The notes below the pieces were generated by a model that had not been told where the DNA came from, did no database searches, and worked only from the letters and a program-made list of their open reading frames with translations. A stretch of 64,000 nucleotides of DNA from Adineta vaga. Its lineage: Eukaryota > Animalia > Rotifera. This document shows positions 40,323 to 56,594 of this stretch, piece by piece. The position numbers were made by a program, and so were the translations under genes. Where the stretch lies: positions 8,928,001-8,992,000 of the forward strand of contig CP075495.1 of NCBI GenBank assembly GCA_021613535.1, read 5' to 3'. Every line of letters starts with the position of its first letter. Within the stretch, counting starts at the first letter, position 1.

Positions 40323-43300
40323 TCACATTGCTATATTTCGTTGTATTGGTGGAATAGTTGATTGCCATCGGAATTGTTCGAGATGTCTTTTTTCATGAGA
40401 CCAATAACCAAATTTCTTTTGTTCAAGATAAGCCGTCATAGCACGTTTCTTTTGATTGTATTCTTTGGCTGTTTGTTTAAGATTATAATAACTTGAGTCA
40501 GATGTTATTGGTTGAAGTTTTAATCGTTGACATACAAGACGATATTCACTTAAAAGAACAACTTTTGATATTAAACTTGTACCTCTAGAAAAATACGAAA
40601 GCAATTCATATTTATGATTAATTTTAAATTTTATTTTGATTCCTACCCCGTTACAGGTCGACCAGTACGTGCATCAATAATTTCACCTTGAAAGGAAGTT
40701 GACCATGCATAACTATAATCACAGTCATACTCTTGCGGTTGAACAAGTGGATATTTAACACGACCTAACGTATATGTATATTGAAAATTCAGAAAGAAAA
40801 TTTTCATCTTACCAATCATAGGATGATGTACTCGTACGGGATCAGTTGCTTTTTCTAATCGACAACATACAGCTCGTGATGTATGTGATTGTTTAAAACC
40901 GCTGACTATTGAAATAAAAAGCATAACATTTCAATATAATGAAAGTTAAAGAATTTATACGAAATGTAATTGAAGCAAGTTTAATTGGCTCGATGAGATT
41001 CGAAAGAAGAGCACCTTGAACGCCAAGAACATTCCATTTGAGAATTTTATCACTACATGACATAATAGCAAAACGTTGAAGAGCTAAAAAGTGAAATAGA
41101 ATGAAATTCTTTTCCTTATTAGATTAATTGAACTTACGTTCAGCATCAATTGTTTCCATACCAACTGATAGTTTATATCTTAAATGACCATGTTCCGGAT
41201 GTTCATAAATTGGTGCATGACCAGCTGCTCGCATTTGTACAAGATCATAAGGAGCCATCGGTCCTAAATGAAAGATCATCCGTATACATGATATTATCTT
41301 GGAAAATCGAATTAGTACATACCATCACAATCAGCTGGTAGAAATTCTCGTCCATCACCAGCAGGTGCTCCAGAAATCAATAAATGAATGGATACATGAT
41401 TTTTTAATTGAGTTTTAGTTGAATCTCTTTCACTAGATTCTAAAATGGATCGAATGGCACTACCATTTGCATAATTAATTAATTCTCCATATAAATATCT
41501 ATAGTTAACAGTAAAGAATTCTTTCAAAAATGTGAAATTTTTCGAAATGAGCATTTAGTAATATTGATTAACTTCCGAAACTTACTGGAGAAATGCTCGT
41601 CTTGCAAGAGCTAAAGCATGACAATCAAGTAATGATTCACCCATTTCACTAACATTATCCGGTTCTGGACATCGACTACCAATACCAAATGCGACAACAC
41701 GACCAGCATCACGTTGTGCTAGATTATAGGATTAAAGTATTACTTCATCTGTTTAGGAAAACATTACACTTTTTCGTAAAACTTACTCTTTTTTACAACA
41801 AAAGCTGCATAAAACCGATTATGAATTGTATCAAACATGGATGAATGATCATTTGCTCGATTATGTTTAATAAAATCAGCTACTGTATTTGATATTTCTT
41901 CATATTCAGTCAATGCTACCATTGGTTTACTTGTAATAATCTAACAAACAAAAGAAAGACACACATTGAAATTTCTTTTATCTCATATTTACATGTGATG
42001 GTTGTTTTTTCATAAGTGCTTCTAATGCTCGTTGTGCAGCTCGTCGTCTTGCATCTATTGCTGTATAAGCATACACATCCGATATTTTCGTATCTTCATT
42101 ATCCAAAATTACCCATGAACGATATCTAAATAAATCCCAAAACTGAATCCTTGAAAGAAAGAAAACAACTCTATAGATTACAATTTTCTCTGATCAGGAT
42201 TCTTTGGATCAGGTTCACAAACATCAGTTTTAATATCAATTGGTAACATATTTGCCTTACAATATTCTTGTAAATTTGTAATTGGATTTTCAATTTGTGA
42301 TGTTAAACCTGTGTTGACACCAAAACTACTTATTGGTGTACTTGTTGAATATTGATTCATTGATGAAGGCGGTCGTCCAGATAAGACTGATTCTCGACCA
42401 CATTGTCATAGGTAATTCATTATTATTATTACTATTATTCACAAGTGGATATGGATTATTGAAAGTTGATGCTCGTGATAATGCACGATCAGTATTGGCT
42501 CGTTGTAAAGCATGTGCAACACCTTTGGATTTCAATAGTTCAAGATCACTAAATAGATAAAAGTGATGCTTTGTTCTTCTGAAAAATAAAATGATCTATT
42601 TACGTAGCTAAAGCATTTAGCTTTTGTGTCAATTCTTCAACATTAGCAGATGTATATAGATGTTCTGGATTATTAGATCCATTTTCAACAATTTTATGAC
42701 CGTGACGATCAATTTTTACATCAGACATTCCTTAAGAGATGAATTTCTTAAATATCAACGATGTTGGAAGATTAAAAAATATTTACCTGCAAATTTTGTA
42801 TCAAACGCTTCTTCATCAAGATCAAGTAGAGCAGCGAATGCTCGTCGTGCACCTGCAATTTTTGCTTCTTTTTTACTTCTTCCGGTACCCTATCAAACAA
42901 GAATTCTCTCAATAACATATAAATCAAATTGCTATTTGAAATACTTGAGGAAATTGTACATCATCGATAGTTGCATAATTTGCATAGCGATATCCTGAAC
43001 CTGTTTCTGTATATACAATCGTTTTCTTAGTCATAGAACAGTATTCATTGAGACATTGTACAGGATTCTTTTTTCCACGTAATAAATCTTCGATGATATC
43101 TTGTCCGATACGTTTTATTTGACCGCCGATACGAGAATTGGACCGTATTCTAATGGGAAAAATAGAAAGAGAGGTAATAGTAAAAAAAGTTCATAGTATA
43201 GAAGAAAATATTCTTACGAAGCTTGATCTTGGAATGATTCTGCATAGGAAGGTCCAGCTGGCAAGCGCTGCACGGCAAATGTGAAGCGATTGTCAACCAT
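40323..43300 (-). CDS. ADAD: ADAD-like protein: two dsRNA-binding motifs plus a catalytically degenerate ADAR-type deaminase domain, multi-exon
   Basis: dsRBM1 [25 protein letters not shown]. dsRBM2 [19 protein letters not shown]. Deaminase domain [28 protein letters not shown] and [21 protein letters not shown]. Confidence 0.85.
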
Positions 43301-44415
43301 TGAAATAAAAAAGAAATCTAAAACTAAGCTAGACTTGTTTTTAATAATATGACATCAATAGAAAAATGTAAAAATATTGATCTTTGTTAGTGAATGTACA
43401 TGATCTTATATTTTAAATGATATCATGTCGATAGTTTTGAGTTTTCATTGATATTCTCGTTGATTATCGAAGGGAAAACACGTTAGATATTTATTTCAAT
43501 AGAATTGACTTTTTGCATTTGCTCGCTGATATTAGCATATTCCTATTAGAGCTTGTGCCAGGAGGCTTCAGTGTATTGCAGAATATGCTAATCATACATA
43601 ACATAGACAAGTTCAAAGAATAACTATTAAGCTGAACGTTTGTTGTAGATTTTCAGAAACATTCTTTTTAGTCATCATCAGTACCTGATACTCAACTATC
43701 AACTTACTATTGAATACATACACTTTCAGAAGAACAAACTTCAAAACAGGTCTGTCTTTTTTTTCTGTATATCTCTTGATCTCAAAATTTTGTTAGTTAT
43801 TTATGATTAGCATGCGATCTAATATACTGAGTTAGCGATTACTTTCGAAAATGAAAAACATTGAATTGACGTGCATTTGAATTCGTTAATATAAACTTAT
43901 TGGATTGAATAACAAATCCTTGAAAACAAGTGACATTCATTGTTTCAATAAGATTTTTAAAAAGCTGTTGTAAAGTGGTCTATATCAAACCTTTAAACTG
44001 TTCATATAAATGAAATGAAATTGGAAAAAAAACGAAGATTTTCTAACTATTATTCGTTCAAAATCGATAAGATTATTGGTTAGAAAATAAATCGTTTCTC
44101 TGCTCTCGAAATTATTACCCGTTCCACATCATTTCGTTGAAAACTATGGATCGATAGGTAATTAACGCCCTCTATCATCACACATTTATCAACAAGATGA
44201 ATAATTCATGTTCATTTTCCGAGAATACAGTTATACAAACATGAAAATTTCCTTTGTTTTTTCCAAATTTTTTATTTTTTCATATAAAAATAATCATGTC
44301 AGATAGAAACCAATAAGAAATTAAGTCCTACGCATCAAACCCACGTTAGTGTTAACAAATACATAAACTATCTAAATTTAATATAGTTAGCTACACAAGT
44401 AATCATTAAATTAAG

Positions 44416-46002
44416 ATGAATTTGGTTACGCCAAGACAACGGCAGGAATGGTTAAGTCGTGCTGAAGATTACGCTGATATTGTAAAGAGAAAATTTCTTA
44501 AATTTATACAAAATATTTCTTCAATTGCTTTTGTTCTCTTTCTATAAATAGTTTCTTAATCGTACGAAATATATCTTACCACATGTAGCAAGATTTTGTT
44601 TAGTATCAACATTTATTGAAGATGGTATTCGAATGTGGATGCAATGGGGCGATCAACGAGATTATATTATGAAAAGTTGGAATGTGGGATGGTTCTTAGG
44701 AACATTGTTTGTCATTACAAATTTATTGGGTCAACTGATTCCATGTGGAATGATTTTAGCGAGAAGAAAAACTGATATTGCATGTGCAGTTCTAGTTTTT
44801 ATTATTGCTTTTCAAGTAAGTTTTCTTTATTAACTTTTCAATCAAACAGAAAATCCTATGAAATATTTGATGTGTCTATTACAAAAAATGAATTGAGTCG
44901 ATTTAGAGTAGAAGAATCTTTAGCTGTTATCTACTTGTCAACATTACCTTCATTTCTGATTACTATTGAAAGAATACTTAACAACGTCAATATTCTGACG
45001 GTGAGAGAAAAAAGGAAATTATATGTAATGGAAAAAATATTTCGCTTGAAAAGTTTCAATTATTCATAATAATAACGATATAAACAATTCGATTGCTAGG
45101 CACATCTTCGTTTATGTATGAGTTTTTATCGAGTTTTAACCTGAAAAACAGAGATCAATCATTCTTTGATTCTTTTTCATAAACAAAAGTACACTATGAG
45201 AGTTATTACTAAACAATCATTCCTTAGCTTAATTCATCTTTCTTTTTTTATAAGGAATGAGAATGCTTTCGATACAAAACATTTTCTTTGCTTGTATTTT
45301 TATAGTCAATTGCCTATCGAATTATAATGGAACCTCGCTTCTTATTTAGGTAATACATTTTATATTCTAATTCTTCTTTATTTTAGACACTTGCTTATCA
45401 AACTTTATGGAGCTTCCGTACTTTACTAAAGTGAGAATTATCATGTAGAGAAGAGATCATTAAAATTGCTGCTAAAACTAGTTCTAATTATTTTCGAAGA
45501 AAGAAAAAGATTTCCATCAATTTTATCTTTTCTTCTCTCTTTACTTAGATCATGTTCATTAGTTGGCGGTTTATTATTATTAATGGTCGAAAATCGTAAA
45601 GAAGCACGTACTTTATTTGCTGGCGTACCGACAATGCATAATAATGCTCCGAAGAATTACATGCAATTCGCTGGTCGAATCTTATTAGTAATTATGTTCT
45701 TAACCATAGTTCGTTATGAATTATCATTTACATCTGTAATTCAAAATTTAATTGGTGGAATATGTATGTTATTTGTTGCTGTCGGTTTTAAAACAAAATT
45801 ATCCGCTCTATTTATGGTAGTATATTTAACATTTGTGAATTTCTATTCAAATTCGTTTTGGCTCGTACCGAATCATCGTGCATTGCATGATTTTTTGAAA
45901 TATGATTTTTTTCAAACAATGTCCGTTATTGGTGGATTACTTTATGTTGTTGCACTTGGTCCAGGTGGTGTATCAGTCGATGCACGAAAGAAAGAATGGT
46001 AA
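44416..46002 (+). CDS. SURF4: Surfeit locus protein 4 (Erv29) ER cargo receptor, multi-exon with a duplicated internal exon
   Basis: Contains [53 protein letters not shown] and [14 protein letters not shown] (KKXX retrieval signal). Confidence 0.96.
45306..45430 (+). other. Tandem pair of 44-nt putatively mutually exclusive exons in SURF4 (45306-45349 and 45387-45430)
   Basis: Both are AG/GT flanked, 44 nt long, phase 0 in and phase 2 out. They encode [15 protein letters not shown] and [15 protein letters not shown], both aligning to the SURF4 segment TIAYSILWDLKFLMR. Confidence 0.88.
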
Positions 46003-46373
46003 ATTCAAATACATAGATCAAAGAAATACATAACTTATCTACATTCTTATTCAAAATTTTATGTTATTCATTTTCAAATTAATAACAGTACATATAATTT
46101 TTTTCTAATTTTTGTTGTGCACTCATTTCTTTTGTGTGTATCGTCCATTTTGTTGTTGTTATTATTATTATTATTATTATTTTATCTTTTTATTCTGAAA
46201 TCAAGCTTATTTATAACCTATTTAAAAGTAAAAGAACAAAATAAATATCGTCTCTAGTGAATTTTGAAATCTTTTTCTTTTTCTTTCTGAATTATCAGAG
46301 AAGAACAAACAAAAAATCAAAATTGAAAATTGTACAAGTCTTTTGTTCTATTACTGTAGATATATTGTTATCA

Positions 46374-47235
46374 ATGGAGAACACATCGAATTTAAATGAT
46401 TTGGTATGATTATTAATTAATTTATAGAGAAAGAAAATTTGTCAGATCATACGACAGATTCTTTTATTCGAACTTTTTAATGTTGTTTTCATCACATTTT
46501 GAAGTCAATATCTTTTCTCGTTTACAAATTTGATTTGTATACATTATCTAGGATTTGGATAACAAACAAGGAGCAAGTGCACCACTTCCATCAGCATCTG
46601 CTGAAGATTATATCAATGATGTAAACTAGCAATTTGAATATGAACTTAATCATTCATTTCTTCTTTATTTAGCCTATACTTGAAGAACAATGGGCAATGA
46701 AAGCTTTTCAACATGCCGAAACCTATTTCAATGTATGAACTATGAAATCGATTGAATTACAATTCTTCTTTGTATTTAGTTACTTCGTTCACTTGATCCA
46801 ACAAGTTTACGATTAACTCCTCATGATGATCAAATCTATACTCGTTTTCGTCAAGTCTTTCCAGATTTAAAAATTGATCATCTCGACGAAGATCATATCA
46901 AATCAGTCGAAGGCAAACAAGTAAAATTTCAGAAAAGCTTTTATTTCATCAACTGATTGTTTTCTTCGATTTTTTAAGCAATGGAGATCATTCTGTGAAG
47001 AATTTCGAGAATTAATCGATGATTACAGTTATGGTACATTGGTTCGAACTGATGCTAAAGGAGAATATACCAGTGAAAATACAATTCTTGGTAAAAATTT
47101 TGCTGAACAAGTTTTGATTTGAAGAGAAAATTCTTGTTTTTAGTGGTGCGAATTCAATTCTATGCAATTGAAATTGCTCGAAATCGCGAAGGATCCAATG
47201 AATCAATTCGACGTGATTTTGGTTCAAAAAAATAG
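46374..47235 (+). CDS. PBDC1: Polysaccharide biosynthesis domain-containing protein 1, multi-exon
   Basis: Contains LEEQWAMKAFQHAETYFN, LRLTPHDDQIY, WRSFCEEF..DYSYGTLVR and RIQFYAIEIARNREG. Confidence 0.93.
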
Positions 47236-47336
47236 AGATAATTTGTTTTTTTTGTTTTTTCTTTCGAAATAAAACGAAACAATTATGGATAAGAAGAATA
47301 GATAATTATATGTTTAACTTTATGTTTCAGTTAAAT

Positions 47337-49633
47337 ATGACGAAATGGGATCCATTACACGAACGATATTTTTATTATCTTGGTAGTTTATCGTTTGATA
47401 AAGCAAAAGAACTTTTAGTATGTTTATAATTGACATATTCTGATTCATTAAATTCAATTGAATTATTTAGGATAAAGATGGTCATCGAATGAACGATGAT
47501 TTTCTTCCACATTTCCATATGTTAATACAACTCGAACGGAGTTATCATAATTTCGGGTTTGTTGTTGGACCAAAAGGAAATTTGAGTAATATTCGAAAAG
47601 ATGTTAGTAGTTTTACACTCATTTATATTAGATAGAAACGTTTTGTATTTTATTTTCAATAGAAATCTTTATGTCAGTGCTATTCCGATCTTCACATGTC
47701 TTTAATTGAAGAACAAGTAACATTTCCAAGAGAAACACATGCACTTTCTCTGATCTATTTTTTCTTCTAGGCAAATAATAAATCGAATATTCCATCGCAA
47801 ACATCCGTTGATGAAGCAAAAGAACTCAGTTATATTCAAAAATTAACAGCTGGTTTAATTACATTCCTTAGTGTTCGAACAAGTCTAATGAAATTGTATA
47901 AGATATATATTTTAATTTTCTCTGAATCCGAATCTTTTCTTTTCTTATCAGATACGAACAAATTTCTACTGCCGTCAAACGGAGTGAACATAACGTTCGT
48001 CTAGAAAATTATCTTGATGAAACTCTAACTATTTCGCAACTAGACATGTCTTCATTAAATATTCCAGTTCTTCAGTCTCTTCGTCGATTATTGAAGTAAA
48101 AACAATGAATTTATGAAAAAATATAAATGAATTTTGCTAGGCATGAAATCGATTGTTTATTATTATTAATTCAATCTTATGTTTTTATATGTGAATATCA
48201 ATACATGGATGGTATATCAACATTACATCATATGCATTGTGTATTGAAAGAATGGAATGATAATATTGAAAATCAACAAAATACAAATCATCGTTTTACA
48301 TTGTCAAGTACAAGTCCATTGAGTTTTTTCAAAACAACGACTAAACCAGCACTCTATACATTTTATTTTAAATTTCATGAATTATTAGTCGCCAAAGTAA
48401 AAATCTATTTCTTATTGATTAAAACAAAATCAATTTCGTTTTAGTTTACACTTTATTTCACGGATATTCTATTAGAATATGGTGGACCAGAAGCGAAAAC
48501 ACCGATAAGTAAAACAAATTCGGAAATTTCTGCGCGTATTGCACATTTTTATCGACGTTCGAATGTTGAATGGATAACATTAATTTTAAATACGAAAAAA
48601 GAACCAAGTTCTTCAAATCAATTAAAAACAGATAATACAACAACGAGTGAAAATGATAATTCTTATCAGATTATCTTTGGTTATCCTTCGAAATTGAATG
48701 CAGTTCGTAAAATTGCGTTGTTTAATTTCAAATAAATGTTTTCATCTTGTGTCTAGACAGACGATATTGCTCAACAAATTCTTAAAAAAGTTGCGATCAA
48801 TGTTGAAACACTTGTCAGTGGAGAAAAAATGTTTTATCATGGTGATGCGGTATGTACTCATCTGTTTTTTCTCAACTAAATCAAATATATCCGGTATCTG
48901 AGTATTCATTTCCTGTTCCTGACTTAAACGAGTAGATAATTTCTGCCATAAATAAATATGTCAGGTTTTCTTTAAAAAACATCTGTAAGAATAGTTTACT
49001 AAATTGACAACTATTTTCTGGACATGACATATTGTTAAAAGATTGCAATCAATCTTCCTGTTGACGTATAGTACAAAACGATTTTTTATGCATATATTTG
49101 TAGTCAACTTTCATTGTATACCAAACTCGTTCAAACGTTCGTTCAAACGAACTTTTTTTTTGTATATCATTATGACACAACTAGTCGAGTGAATAGAGGT
49201 TAATTGATATAAAAAGAACGAAAAAGAAATAAATTTTCGTACAGGTTAATTCACCCTCAAAACTTCATTTGAATCTGCATAATCGACAATCAAATCTAAT
49301 TGCTTATATATATTTTTTATCTATCTCTATCGATCTTCGTATGAATAAGCGTCCTTGAAATCGTCGAAGACGAAAAAGAAAAACAATCGATTGATATCAA
49401 ATTGATAATAGTCATTGAGAGGAAAAAATAGACTAGTTAATTTTTTATATCTGTTCTAGAATCAATTGAAAACATATTTCCTACAAAATATTGATCCACG
49501 AATAACTCTTGCATTTGTTTTTGCATCTCATCGTCAAGAACGTGATACAACGATAACAACTTTTCTTAATGAATTACTCGGTATATTACGTGGTATACGT
49601 CAATTGATTTATTTCAAAAATGCGGCGAAATAA
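47337..49633 (+). CDS. KICS2: KICSTOR subunit 2 (C12orf66)-like protein, multi-exon
   Basis: N-terminal YFYYLGSLSFDKAKELL, LERSYH, LLVAKFTLYFH and C-terminal TYFLQNIDPRITLAFVF..ERDTTITTFLNEL all resemble C12orf66. Confidence 0.72.
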
Positions 49634-49766
49634 ATGAAACTAGTTGATTTGTAAATTGTTTTTTTCTCTTACTTTATTTTATACCTACAATTTGCACATA
49701 TACACATACACAGAAGAGATGCAAGAATTGAGCAAAGCAACAAAAAAGAAAAACGAAACAATAAGA

Positions 49767-53756: not shown

Positions 53757-56495
53757 TCATCTTGATGAAGTATTAAATTGAGTAAAATAAGCAGCTGTTG
53801 GTTGATTTGTATAAACAACTCGATCAAGATATGCTTTTAAATTCTGTTGTTCATTGGATAAACGTTGGTTATCGTAATAAAGTTCGTGTTGATTTGTACG
53901 CCGTTCACGTTCAAGTTGTTTTTCAGCAATCATTCCAGCTTTAGCTTCAGCTATACGTCGTTGATCCCATTCCTGATCACGTTGTCGTTCTTCTTCATCA
54001 CGACGCTAAAACAGAGAGAACCTTTATGAATTGAAATTCATTGAGGAAAAATCAAATCTTTACTTTTTTCTCTTCAAGTTGTCTTTGTTGTTCTTCACGT
54101 ACACGACGTAATTGATCTTCATTCATACCTTTCCATCGATCTGGAACAACACGATGTGGTCCAAATTGACTGATAGCTTGATCAGGATTTTCCGATAATA
54201 AATCACTTGTAACCATATTCGTCATTTCTGCATAGTTATCATAATCTTCTTGACGTTTTTTCAGTGCTCGGCGTTCTTGACTTTCTCGAAACTAAGAAAG
54301 AACGAAAACAAACAAAAGTTTTTTCTTCTATATCAAATAGTAATTATCATTAGTTTATCTTTTGACAAAATAGAAATTATCATTACGTTTTCTTTCTCTT
54401 CCGTTTTCTTTCAGTATTCATCATTATTTGCAAGTATTAGAACATTCGTGACATTAATGAAAGGTTTTTTAATCAATGTCTGACAGTAAATAACAAAGAT
54501 TTAACGCCCAAACTATATTTCCTCGTAAATATTAAACGTCTGCTTTGTTTTGTTAGATCGTATGATGAAGAATAGGTAAGCTTTCTATTCGAAATCGAGA
54601 TTAGAAACATGAATCGAACCGATTTTGTGTTATTTTTTTTGAAAATCATCTATTTTGCTTTTCATAAAATAGATCGTGAAGCAAGTTTGATTAGTCTTAA
54701 GGATAGAACTAATAACATAGTGTTCGTTAGGTACAATAGAACGGTTTTCTATCATGATGAAAATCTAAGAAATTATTGTTCACTAGTGAACAGATTTGTT
54801 ATAGTTTCTTTTAACTTTTCGAATAGATTTTCTCGAATTTATACTCTAAAATACAAGCTACTTCAAGTCGATTGCAATCATAGAAATCAATGTGTGTCCT
54901 CTCTAGTGTACTTGAATTCGATCTCAATAGTACAATCAAATGTTTAGAAAGAAAATTGACTCTAATCAGTTATTATTGATTTCTCGTTAGCTGAATGTTA
55001 GTTTTAATCATGTGTATTTTGAAAAGAAAATTCAATCTCTCACCTAAATCATTTTATTAAGACTATGCAATGTAATAGTTAATTACTTAATGTCAATCTG
55101 TCTACTATTGTGATAATAAAAAAATAGAATATGTTTTTGGTTAGTAATCCTTATTTATTGTATTCATAGAAATAACTAGAATGAAAAATAGCTGTCACTG
55201 AGTGCTACATATGTTACTATCTATTAGTTTATCGAAAATATCCCCTCGAGATAGTGAACATAAGTATGACATTGAATGCTCTCGTATTATCTGGAAGTAA
55301 ATAAATAGTATGACTATTTTCAAAAAATCTCTTATGGTATAGCCTTGTTACATATTATTTCGATTTTTTTCTATGATTACGGACGAATAAAAATGAACTG
55401 GGTAAGTTTTGATGATAATTAATACGTTCCTTTTCCGTTGTAATTCTCCTGTAGTGGAACTAATTATTAGTTTGATTTTGTACGTTTTAAGAAGGTTACA
55501 TTAGTCTTAATTACAGAAGTTATCGTGCTAGACTTTGTTGTTTTCTAAATGAATAGGTACGATAGACCTTAAGTTTAGTTATTTAAAGTAAAATACGTAG
55601 GTTTTATGATCCTTATTAGTTTCCGGAACAAATCTTCTCTGTAACTTACTAATGCATCATTGTAATTTCGAATCGATTTATTAACATCTCTTCGACATTG
55701 TTCTTCCGCACGTTGAAGTTCAATAGCTCGTTGATCCAATTCAATTTGTTTAGCATGAAATAATTGATCAGCTGCATGTTGTTGTTGTTGGGCACGACGT
55801 TGATCTTCTTGTTGCATACGTGACCATTCGCGTAATTGTTCTTTTTGATATTGAGCACGTGCATTTGAATTAAGATCTTCACCTTGAAATTTTTGTAAAC
55901 TAGCTAAACCACAACGTGGATCATCATCGGAGACACGTGCTGGAACATCTTTTTTCAAAAAATCTGGATCATTTAAATCCCATTCACCTACAAGAGAAAA
56001 ATGACTTTTCTTTTCTTAAGTTTTTATTTTCTAGAATTTCTTACGTTGAGCATTTGGTTGTTGATGTAAAGCACGAAATTCATTTAATGCTCGATTATTT
56101 TCTCTTTCATCATTTTCTTGACGACGTTGAAGTAATTGAGCAATTGAATCATTTCGAATTGCATCTTTAGCTAGAAGGATGAAATAAAAGAGATAGGTTT
56201 TTTTCCCCTCACCAATCAATTCATTAAAGATCAGTATTACCAAAAGCAGATGCTCGTTTGTGTTCTAATTCTTCCATCCATTGTCGATCTTGTATTTGTT
56301 GATCTAATGTATTTTTATCAATCTATACAAATCAATTTTAAATAAGAAAGATTCTTTTTTTTTCATGTTTCTTCTAACCCCAATCTGACGATATTTCGAA
56401 TTGAATATTCGTCCTTGACGTTCTTCTTCTGCACGACGACGTCGTTCAATCGCAGCTTTTTCTTTCAGATCGATGGGTAGATCGAGTTTATACAT
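53757..56495 (-). CDS. RIBC2: RIB43A-like ciliary microtubule inner protein, multi-exon with one ~1.35 kb intron
   Basis: Contains [71 protein letters not shown] and the terminus [14 protein letters not shown]. Confidence 0.92.
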
Positions 56496-56594
56496 GTCTA
56501 ATTTCGATAAATGAATGAAAGAATGTTGTGTGTATTCAAATTTTTTTTCTTATGTTAAAAACATAACAAAATATGTCTACCATTGATGTTTCAT

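What the first reader, a model, noticed from the sequence alone, without database searches (positions are those of the whole stretch)
45306..45430. Second mutually exclusive exon pair, in the ER cargo receptor SURF4, with a 37-nt spacer
Seen: two 44-nt exons, [14 protein letters not shown](R) and [14 protein letters not shown](K), share identical phases. The intron between them (45350-45386) is only 37 nt, shorter than the ~45-70 nt introns I examined elsewhere in the window. Including both breaks the frame. Known: very short spacers are a classic steric mechanism enforcing mutual exclusivity, and SURF4/Erv29 is a cargo receptor for soluble secretory proteins. Inference: the swapped segment is a short inter-transmembrane loop region, so the isoforms may differ in cargo selection.
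Basis: partly seen in the sequence, partly recalled or inferred. Interest (0 to 1): 0.78.

Follow-up and report, generated by a model that had tools for sequence, protein, structure and literature searches.

The report
Swappable cargo-pocket exon in rotifer SURF4
In bdelloid rotifers the gene for the secretory cargo receptor SURF4 carries two copies of one 44-base exon, likely too close to be spliced together, and the second copy is predicted to reshape the receptor's cargo-binding pocket, although only the first copy was seen in a correctly spliced RNA.

Summary
The window is bdelloid rotifer DNA (exon 4 is 100% identical to an Adineta vaga protein), and SURF4 has two same-phase 44-nt exons, A (45306-45349) and B (45387-45430), 37 nt apart. 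The pair recurs in 4 of 9 informative bdelloid metagenome loci with a 36-nt spacer, and B appears in gene models of three more species. The spacer is shorter than all 43 introns I could define by homology (minimum 45). The exon equals human SURF4 residues 105-119, part of the mapped lumenal cargo pocket; B changes four positions that are near-invariant in other animals. RNA contigs are only half supportive. A is spliced on both sides in 7 of 8 runs. B's donor is used in 3 runs, but each time with A and the unspliced spacer attached, which makes a premature stop. No exon 2-to-B junction was seen (0 of 8), though contigs drop such variants. Best reading (0.65): a minor, regulated mutually exclusive exon, excluded sterically and leaking a dead-end RNA. 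It is a new member of a known kind.

The parts
44416..44481 (+). SURF4 coding exon 1 (from ATG)
   Evidence: joint 44481->44552 in RNA contigs of X1, X5, X8
44552..44815 (+). SURF4 coding exon 2 (constitutive)
   Evidence: PF02077 positions 14-101; joint 44815->45306 in 7 of 8 runs
44816..45305 (+). intron 2 (490 nt), with a cryptic donor at 45000/45001 joined to exon A in one run
   Evidence: joint 45000->45306, GT..AG, depth 2.7, one contig in X1; intron-2 contigs in X1 and X2
45306..45349 (+). exon A, 44 nt, default form; protein residues 111-125, equal to human SURF4 105-119
   Evidence: spliced on both sides in 7 of 8 runs; annotated form UJR27275.1
45350..45386 (+). 37-nt spacer, GT..AG, shorter than any intron sampled; begins with an in-frame TAA if retained
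   Evidence: 36 nt in four other loci; retained in contigs of X1, X3, X6, never seen spliced out
45387..45430 (+). exon B, 44 nt, duplicated alternative exon
   Evidence: open frame, acceptor and donor kept in 5 of 5 loci that have it; donor used in X1, X3, X6; acceptor use not seen
45467..45473 (+). conserved intronic motif TGCTGCT (two overlapping YGCY), candidate Muscleblind-type enhancer of exon B or distal branch site
   Evidence: in 5 of 5 B-bearing introns, no YGCY in 5 of 5 A-only introns, 2 copies on the + strand of 64 kb
45549..46002 (+). SURF4 last coding exon, ending in the di-lysine tail and stop
   Evidence: PF02077 positions 119-267; joints from A and from B

Best explanation
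Bdelloid SURF4 carries a conserved tandem duplicate of the 44-nt exon that encodes its loop between two membrane helices; exon A is the form seen in spliced RNA, and exon B is likely a minor, regulated mutually exclusive alternative that would give a receptor with a changed cargo pocket. Steps: (1, shown) the pair, its phase and a 36-37-nt spacer are conserved. (2, shown) B's donor is used in RNA. (3, inferred) the spacer is too short for the spliceosome, so A cannot be joined to B. (4, inferred) a factor binding the UGCUGCU motif downstream of B, most likely Muscleblind-type, switches on B's donor in some cells. (5, inferred) once B's donor is used, exon 2 joins either B's acceptor, giving the 275-aa B protein, or A's acceptor, giving A-spacer-B RNA with a premature stop; the A-spacer-B-exon 4 part is shown in three runs. 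(6, inferred from human mutants) B's changes at the equivalents of I110, D113, F116 and R119 alter or weaken binding of soluble cargo.
For: Pair present in L004, L005, L007, L013 with a 36-nt spacer, a pyrimidine tract plus YAG before B and GT after it. B-form gene models in A. ricciae, R. sordida and D. carnosus, the last two with an A-form model of the same gene. B keeps exactly 44 nt, no stop and 5 of 14 invariant residues across five loci while the next intron varies from 103 to 119 nt. pN/pS is 0.57 (bootstrap 0.26-1.07, 4% at or above 1); in a neutral star-tree simulation at most 1 of 20,000 runs matched this conservation. Spacer below 43 of 43 sampled introns; A-to-B joint in 0 of 8 runs; B-to-exon 4 in X1, X3, X6. 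Motif TGCTGCT 31-50 nt after B in 5 of 5, shuffle P 0.0002-0.002 per intron, and lost together with B in L008. Segment lies at helix 96-113 / loop 114-119 / helix 120-140 in both models. Human pocket mutants include Y108S, I110S and F116R (PMC11557686 Table S1). Among 72 selected non-bdelloid SURF4s I110 is 71/72, D113 71/72, F116 71/72, R119 72/72; across nine B sequences these read T in 8, non-acidic in 8, non-F in 9 (Y in 7) and K in 9.
Against: No exon 2-to-B junction in 8 of 8 runs laid, and only four of them (X1, X3, X5, X6) cover this copy at the site with near-identical sequence. All three B-containing contigs run unbroken from A through the spacer into B. None of the JGI/Logan-derived bdelloid proteins that span the site (P0011, P0012, P0019-P0021, P0145, P0158-P0160, P0164, P0165) and neither mRNA-like locus (L006, L011) is B-form; two searches aimed at B-forms returned only the genome models. 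B is missing from 5 of 9 informative loci, including L001 and L008 in the window's own gene lineage, so it is dispensable. B evolves faster than A (pN/pS 0.57 against 0.16) and its interval touches 1. The simulation assumes independent lineages, and exonic enhancers could also conserve B. Published predicted bdelloid introns mostly span 30-100 nt (PMC5916493), so 36-37 may not be an absolute bar. The human pocket mutant is a four-residue compound, and the W112/D113 mutant is called 'unaffected' in the text but 'Partial XL' in Table S1. F-to-Y in most B exons is a mild change.
Confidence: 0.65

Rival explanations
1. B now works mainly as a poison switch: its donor is an alternative 5' splice site that extends exon A over the spacer, brings in a stop codon and lowers the SURF4 dose by nonsense-mediated decay; B protein is rare or absent.
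For: The only B-containing RNA seen is A-spacer-B joined to exon 4, in three runs of two studies, at contig depths 9.6, 11.7 and 2.5 beside 19.3, 33.7 and 5.7 for A-to-exon 4 (contig depths are crude). The stop lies 77 nt before the last junction, beyond the recalled 50-55 nt rule. A second stop-bringing joint (45000->45306) exists in X1.
Against: A poison extension needs neither B's acceptor nor its reading frame, yet both are kept in 5 of 5 loci, with the family-invariant Y, L and W kept in 9 of 9 B sequences. The stop is just the GTAA of the donor, present also in A-only genes. A decay target would not be expected at roughly a quarter to a third of junction depth.
Confidence: 0.2
2. B is a decaying relic of an old exon duplication with no present role; its donor fires as splicing noise and lineages are losing it.
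For: Absent from L001 and L008 and from the second gene copy (L009, L010, L040); relaxed pN/pS; no productive junction seen.
Against: Kept intact in Adineta, Rotaria and Didymodactylos models and four metagenome loci at synonymous divergence near 0.37, with fixed length, a conserved spacer (68% identity window against L004, the highest of the intron alignments) and a conserved downstream motif.
Confidence: 0.1
3. The two exons are not strictly exclusive: A is sometimes joined to B or to an acceptor inside B, adding a few residues to the loop.
For: One A. ricciae model (P0127, 281 aa) joins A to the last six codons of B; the window's B has an AG at the matching place, which would leave a 63-nt intron and keep the frame (seen in the sequence).
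Against: That AG is absent from B in L004, L005 and L007; no such joint in 8 runs; the model is a prediction.
Confidence: 0.05

Closest known systems
Homologous mutually exclusive exons with a sterically short intervening intron (C. elegans egl-15 5B/5A, 14 nt; let-2 9/10, 30 nt; bet-2, gly-5, gly-6; PMC4165533, passages read)
   Same: Tandem same-length exons from a duplication, separated by an intron below the organism's usual minimum that is not seen excised.
   Different: In those five clusters all exons are 3n long; here they are 3n+2, so frameshift decay would back up the steric block. Here a spacer-retained, stop-containing RNA is conspicuous, and single inclusion of the second exon is not yet shown.
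Vertebrate steric pairs with a branch point close to the upstream donor (alpha-tropomyosin 2/3, cited in PMC4165533; OGDH 4a/4b, PMC7969005, search listing only)
   Same: Exclusion by too little room between donor and branch point.
   Different: Those use a distant branch point in a longer intron; here the whole intron is short. The branch point was not mapped.
SURF4/Erv29 cargo receptors (Pfam PF02077); human lumenal pocket mapped in PMC11557686
   Same: Whole-length family match, same helix layout, di-lysine tail; the same 44-nt exon with the same boundaries is single in a vertebrate-like locus (L034).
   Different: No duplicated or mutually exclusive version of this exon turned up in my paper searches; form B departs from four near-invariant residues.
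FGFR2 IIIb/IIIc and egl-15 5A/5B ligand-specificity switches (FGFR2 role recalled, not checked here)
   Same: A swapped exon remodels a receptor's binding surface.
   Different: Those are cell-surface signalling receptors with shown specificity changes; here it is an ER export receptor and the change is only predicted.
Muscleblind-activated exons (YGCY downstream of included exons; PMC2853123, abstract read)
   Same: Tandem YGCY 31-50 nt downstream of the regulated exon's donor.
   Different: Only a motif match; binding was not tested, and the motif could instead be a distal branch site 56-75 nt before exon 4.

Membership tests
Homologous mutually exclusive exons | Tandem exons of equal length and phase coding the same protein segment | tested here: met
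   both 44 nt, both align to human 105-119, both give 275 aa
Homologous mutually exclusive exons | First single-inclusion isoform exists as RNA | tested here: met
   exon 2-A-exon 4 in 7 of 8 runs, one 732-nt contig spanning it in X5
Homologous mutually exclusive exons | Second single-inclusion isoform exists as RNA | tested here: inconclusive
   exon 2-to-B in 0 of 8 runs, but only assembled contigs were available and the tool states they show presence, not absence; B-form gene models in three species are predictions
Homologous mutually exclusive exons | Double inclusion and double skipping absent or degraded | tested here: inconclusive
   neither joint seen for this copy in 8 runs; both would shift the frame; a spacer-retained double form is present
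Homologous mutually exclusive exons | Both exons conserved in relatives | tested here: met
   4 of 9 informative loci plus models in three species
Sterically enforced subclass | Intervening intron shorter than the organism's minimum | tested here: met
   36-37 nt against a minimum of 45 in 43 sampled introns; a small sample, and published predicted introns reach down to about 30
Sterically enforced subclass | Donor-to-branch-point distance below the spliceosome's limit; lengthening the intron restores joining | not testable with these tools
   needs lariat sequencing and a minigene
RNA-structure (docker/selector) subclass | Stable pairing around the alternative exons | tested here: not met
   45250-45560 folds no better than shuffles, z 0.08; longer-range pairing with intron 2 was not tested
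SURF4/Erv29 family | PF02077 match over the protein, multi-pass helix layout, C-terminal di-lysine tail | tested here: met
   tail seen
SURF4/Erv29 family | Binds and exports soluble cargo | not testable with these tools
   inferred from the human receptor (PMC11557686)
Muscleblind-regulated exon | Conserved YGCY cluster downstream of the exon | tested here: met
   2-3 YGCY in 5 of 5 B introns, none in 5 of 5 A-only introns
Muscleblind-regulated exon | Binding by, and dependence on, a Muscleblind protein | not testable with these tools
   no genome was held, so even the presence of the factor was not checked

The most novel reading that the evidence does not exclude
Bdelloid rotifers switch the cargo specificity of their ER export receptor by splicing: a Muscleblind-type factor selects exon B in a cell type or state, exchanging the lumenal pocket loop of SURF4 so that a different set of secreted proteins is fast-tracked, while the same switch dumps part of the A transcripts into a stop-containing form and so turns the default receptor down as the alternative comes on.
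Probability: 0.25. Interest if true: 0.75.

Novelty: new member of a known kind. Interest (0 to 1): 0.52.

Why it matters
How one receptor, SURF4, recognises many classes of secreted protein is an open question, and I found no solved structure. This pair is a natural swap of 15 residues of its lumenal pocket, kept across three bdelloid genera. The A and B loops can be put into SURF4-knockout cells and tested on known cargoes, which would show what this loop decides. It is also a compact case of steric exon exclusion with a visible by-product and a single candidate regulatory motif, in an animal group for which my searches found no report of mutually exclusive exons. The splicing mechanism itself is known.

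Tried and rejected
No genome was held, so the second A. vaga SURF4 gene could not be read for exon B. Its mRNA contigs in X2 and X3 run unbroken across the site, a weak hint only. A protein tree of exon 4 left the bdelloid copies unresolved and its bootstrap had not settled (two earlier scripts crashed). The DNA tree of 13 rows did separate two lineages, but with one long outgroup branch, so I do not date B against the bdelloid genome duplication. Two searches for transcript-derived B-form proteins found none; the database merges A and B forms at 90% identity, so this is weak. No local RNA structure. No solved relative by sequence or fold. A strict first scan for exon pairs gave only 2 candidates and was loosened. 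One paper search on Muscleblind in invertebrates returned nothing. Three look-ups of earlier findings returned nothing. I laid 8 of the 23 listed runs; X2 did not cover this copy at the site, and X8, X9, X11 are diverged strains, species or paralogues, so they say little about B. Contig depths were not used as isoform levels. No complex prediction was run, since it could not tell A from B. Chance resemblance was rejected on conservation.

Full report
Observation. The gene lies on the + strand: exon 1 44416-44481, exon 2 44552-44815, exon A 45306-45349, spacer 45350-45386, exon B 45387-45430, last exon 45549-46002. A alone or B alone gives an open 275-aa frame. Both together, or neither, shift the frame. 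Keeping the spacer keeps the frame but meets TAA at 45351-45353. Both flanking exons match Pfam SURF4, and the last exon is 100% identical to an Adineta vaga protein whose model uses exon A. Among 812 equal-length AG..GT pairs with open frames in the window, this pair scores highest (18; next 14).

Conservation. A scan of metagenome contigs gave 40 loci; I examined 21 of them for the exon. Nine distinct bdelloid-type genomic loci cover the site (L001-L003 counted once). Four have A and B with a 36-nt spacer (L004, L005, L007, L013); five have A only (L001, L008, L009, L010, L040). Two more are mRNA-like and A-form (L006, L011), and L012 does not reach the site. Annotated proteins with a B-type segment occur in A. 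ricciae, R. sordida and D. carnosus, and the last two also have an A-form model of the same gene. These are predictions, and I do not know what RNA support they had. A DNA tree of exon 4 puts the window, all four A+B loci, L001, L006 and L008 in one clade (100/100), apart from L009-L012; L001, L004, L005, L008 and L013 share neighbouring genes with the window. L008 is sister to L013 (96/93) and lacks B and the downstream motif by a clean deletion. So B belongs to one gene lineage and has been lost within it at least once. A vertebrate-like locus has the same exon boundaries with one copy (L034), so the exon is old and the duplicate looks bdelloid-specific; monogonont genomic structure was not checked beyond L014, which has one copy.

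Is B under selection as protein? Over the five loci B keeps 44 nt, its acceptor and donor, no stop and 5 of 14 invariant residues. pN/pS is 0.57 for B (codon bootstrap 0.26-1.07), 0.16 for A and 0.13 for exon 4. In a neutral simulation on a star tree, no stop plus five invariant residues arose in 0 and 1 of 20,000 runs at two rates; the star tree overstates independence, and splicing enhancers inside B could add constraint. I read this as real but relaxed coding constraint.

The spacer. Aligning the window and related loci defined 43 introns, counted once per acceptor and leaving the spacer out: minimum 45 nt, median 55. The spacer is 36-37 nt in 5 of 5 loci and was the most conserved intron in that comparison (68% identity, window against L004). 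Against an absolute bar, PMC5916493 (passages read; its figure S6 not seen) says most predicted bdelloid introns fall between 30 and 100 nt, with medians 55-58 in Adineta. In C. elegans, spacers under 40 nt between such exons are not excised (PMC4165533, passages read). No special fold surrounds the pair.

RNA. I laid 8 of 23 listed runs, all assembled contigs whose RNA status is a guess of the tool, though their GT..AG joints show splicing. Exon 2-to-A and A-to-exon 4 appear in 7 of 8. B joined to exon 4 appears in X1 (listed joint), X3 (loose end matching exon 4) and X6 (with read errors inside B), from two studies. In all three the contig starts at 45320 and runs unbroken through the spacer into B, at depths 9.6, 11.7 and 2.5 beside 19.3, 33.7 and 5.7 for A-to-exon 4. 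Exon 2-to-B and A-to-B appear in 0 of 8. The tool warns that contigs drop rare variants, and assemblers tend to remove equal-length bubbles (recalled), so B-only mRNA is neither shown nor excluded. Intron 2 has contigs at depth 3-4 in X1 and X2 while the intron after B has none, so part of the A-spacer-B signal may be intermediates still waiting to join exon 2 to B. No transcript-derived B-form protein was found.

Candidate regulator. TGCTGCT lies 31-50 nt after B's donor in 5 of 5 B-bearing introns (shuffle P 0.0002-0.002 each; I found the motif by eye first, and the loci are related). It occurs twice on the + strand of the 64 kb, and the five A-only introns hold no YGCY. YGCY downstream of an exon goes with Muscleblind-promoted inclusion (PMC2853123, abstract only). 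A distal branch site for exon 4 is the alternative reading.

Protein. AlphaFold models of the window's A form and of the A. ricciae B form (mean pLDDT 78 and 80) both place residues 111-125 at the end of helix 96-113, the loop 114-119 and the start of helix 120-140. The segment equals human 105-119 by numbering on an ape sequence. PMC11557686 (passages, one results section and Table S1 read; figures not seen) lists W112/D113 as luminal and builds its pocket-blocking mutant from Y54E, Y108S, I110S and F116R; that mutant loses cargo cross-linking and secretion rescue. It is a compound mutant, and the W112/D113 mutant is 'unaffected' in the text but 'Partial XL' in the table. In 72 non-bdelloid SURF4s, I110, D113 and F116 are each 71/72 and Y108, W112, R119 are 72/72. 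These 72 were picked by hand from 120 listed hits of 750; 34 rows were left out, among them long or apparently mis-annotated entries, several of which differ in this segment. A-type exons keep these residues or the acidic E. Nine B sequences keep Y108, L111 and W112 but have T at 110 in 8, a non-acidic residue at 113 in 8, no F at 116 in 9 (Y in 7; T in the window) and K at 119 in 9. No solved structure was found.

Mechanism and verdict. Most likely (0.65): A is the default; a downstream-bound factor activates B's donor in some cells; the spacer forbids A-to-B joining; the result is either a B-form receptor with an altered lumenal pocket or a stop-containing A-spacer-B RNA. Rivals are a mainly poison role for B (0.2), a decaying relic (0.1) and partial double inclusion (0.05). 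It works like the sterically enforced mutually exclusive pairs of nematodes and vertebrates and meets their structural criteria, but the defining RNA test for the second isoform is inconclusive here. I found no report of it in four paper searches (SURF4 with mutually exclusive exons; bdelloid with alternative splicing; SURF4 with splice variant; rotifer with mutually exclusive exons; listings only, plus passages of PMC6980569). The library lacks most subscription papers, and supplementary tables were not searched. B-form models already sit unnamed in public annotations. Novelty: new member of a known kind. Interest 0.52.

Noticed in passing
My one trial join was out of frame, probably from a misplaced boundary. 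No TGCTGC motif lies near it. Both pairs are in membrane-traffic genes.
   Followed up: partly
window 45000/45001: A good donor inside SURF4 intron 2 is joined to exon A in one contig of X1; read on from exon 2 it meets a stop. Two Rotaria models (P0133, P0135) also start from an exon upstream of A.
   Followed up: partly
window 45327-45329: Exon A of this gene has Met where 72 of 72 selected non-bdelloid SURF4s, and most bdelloid A and all B exons, have Trp (human W112).
   Followed up: no
L008:137-271: A close sister of L013 has lost exon B, most of the spacer and the TGCTGCT motif in one deletion, a natural loss allele for comparison.
   Followed up: partly
proteins P0019, P0020, P0021: Divergent bdelloid-like SURF4s from transcript-sized contigs have a third kind of loop, lacking the Trp and the acidic residue.
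   Followed up: no
window 53760-56549 (-): A RIB43A-family gene with about 1.3 kb between the matches to profile positions 103-219 and 216-290; not examined.
   Followed up: no
window 40326-49700: Gene order around SURF4 (adenosine deaminase-domain gene upstream on the - strand, PBDC1 and a C12orf66-like gene downstream) is kept in L001.
   Followed up: partly
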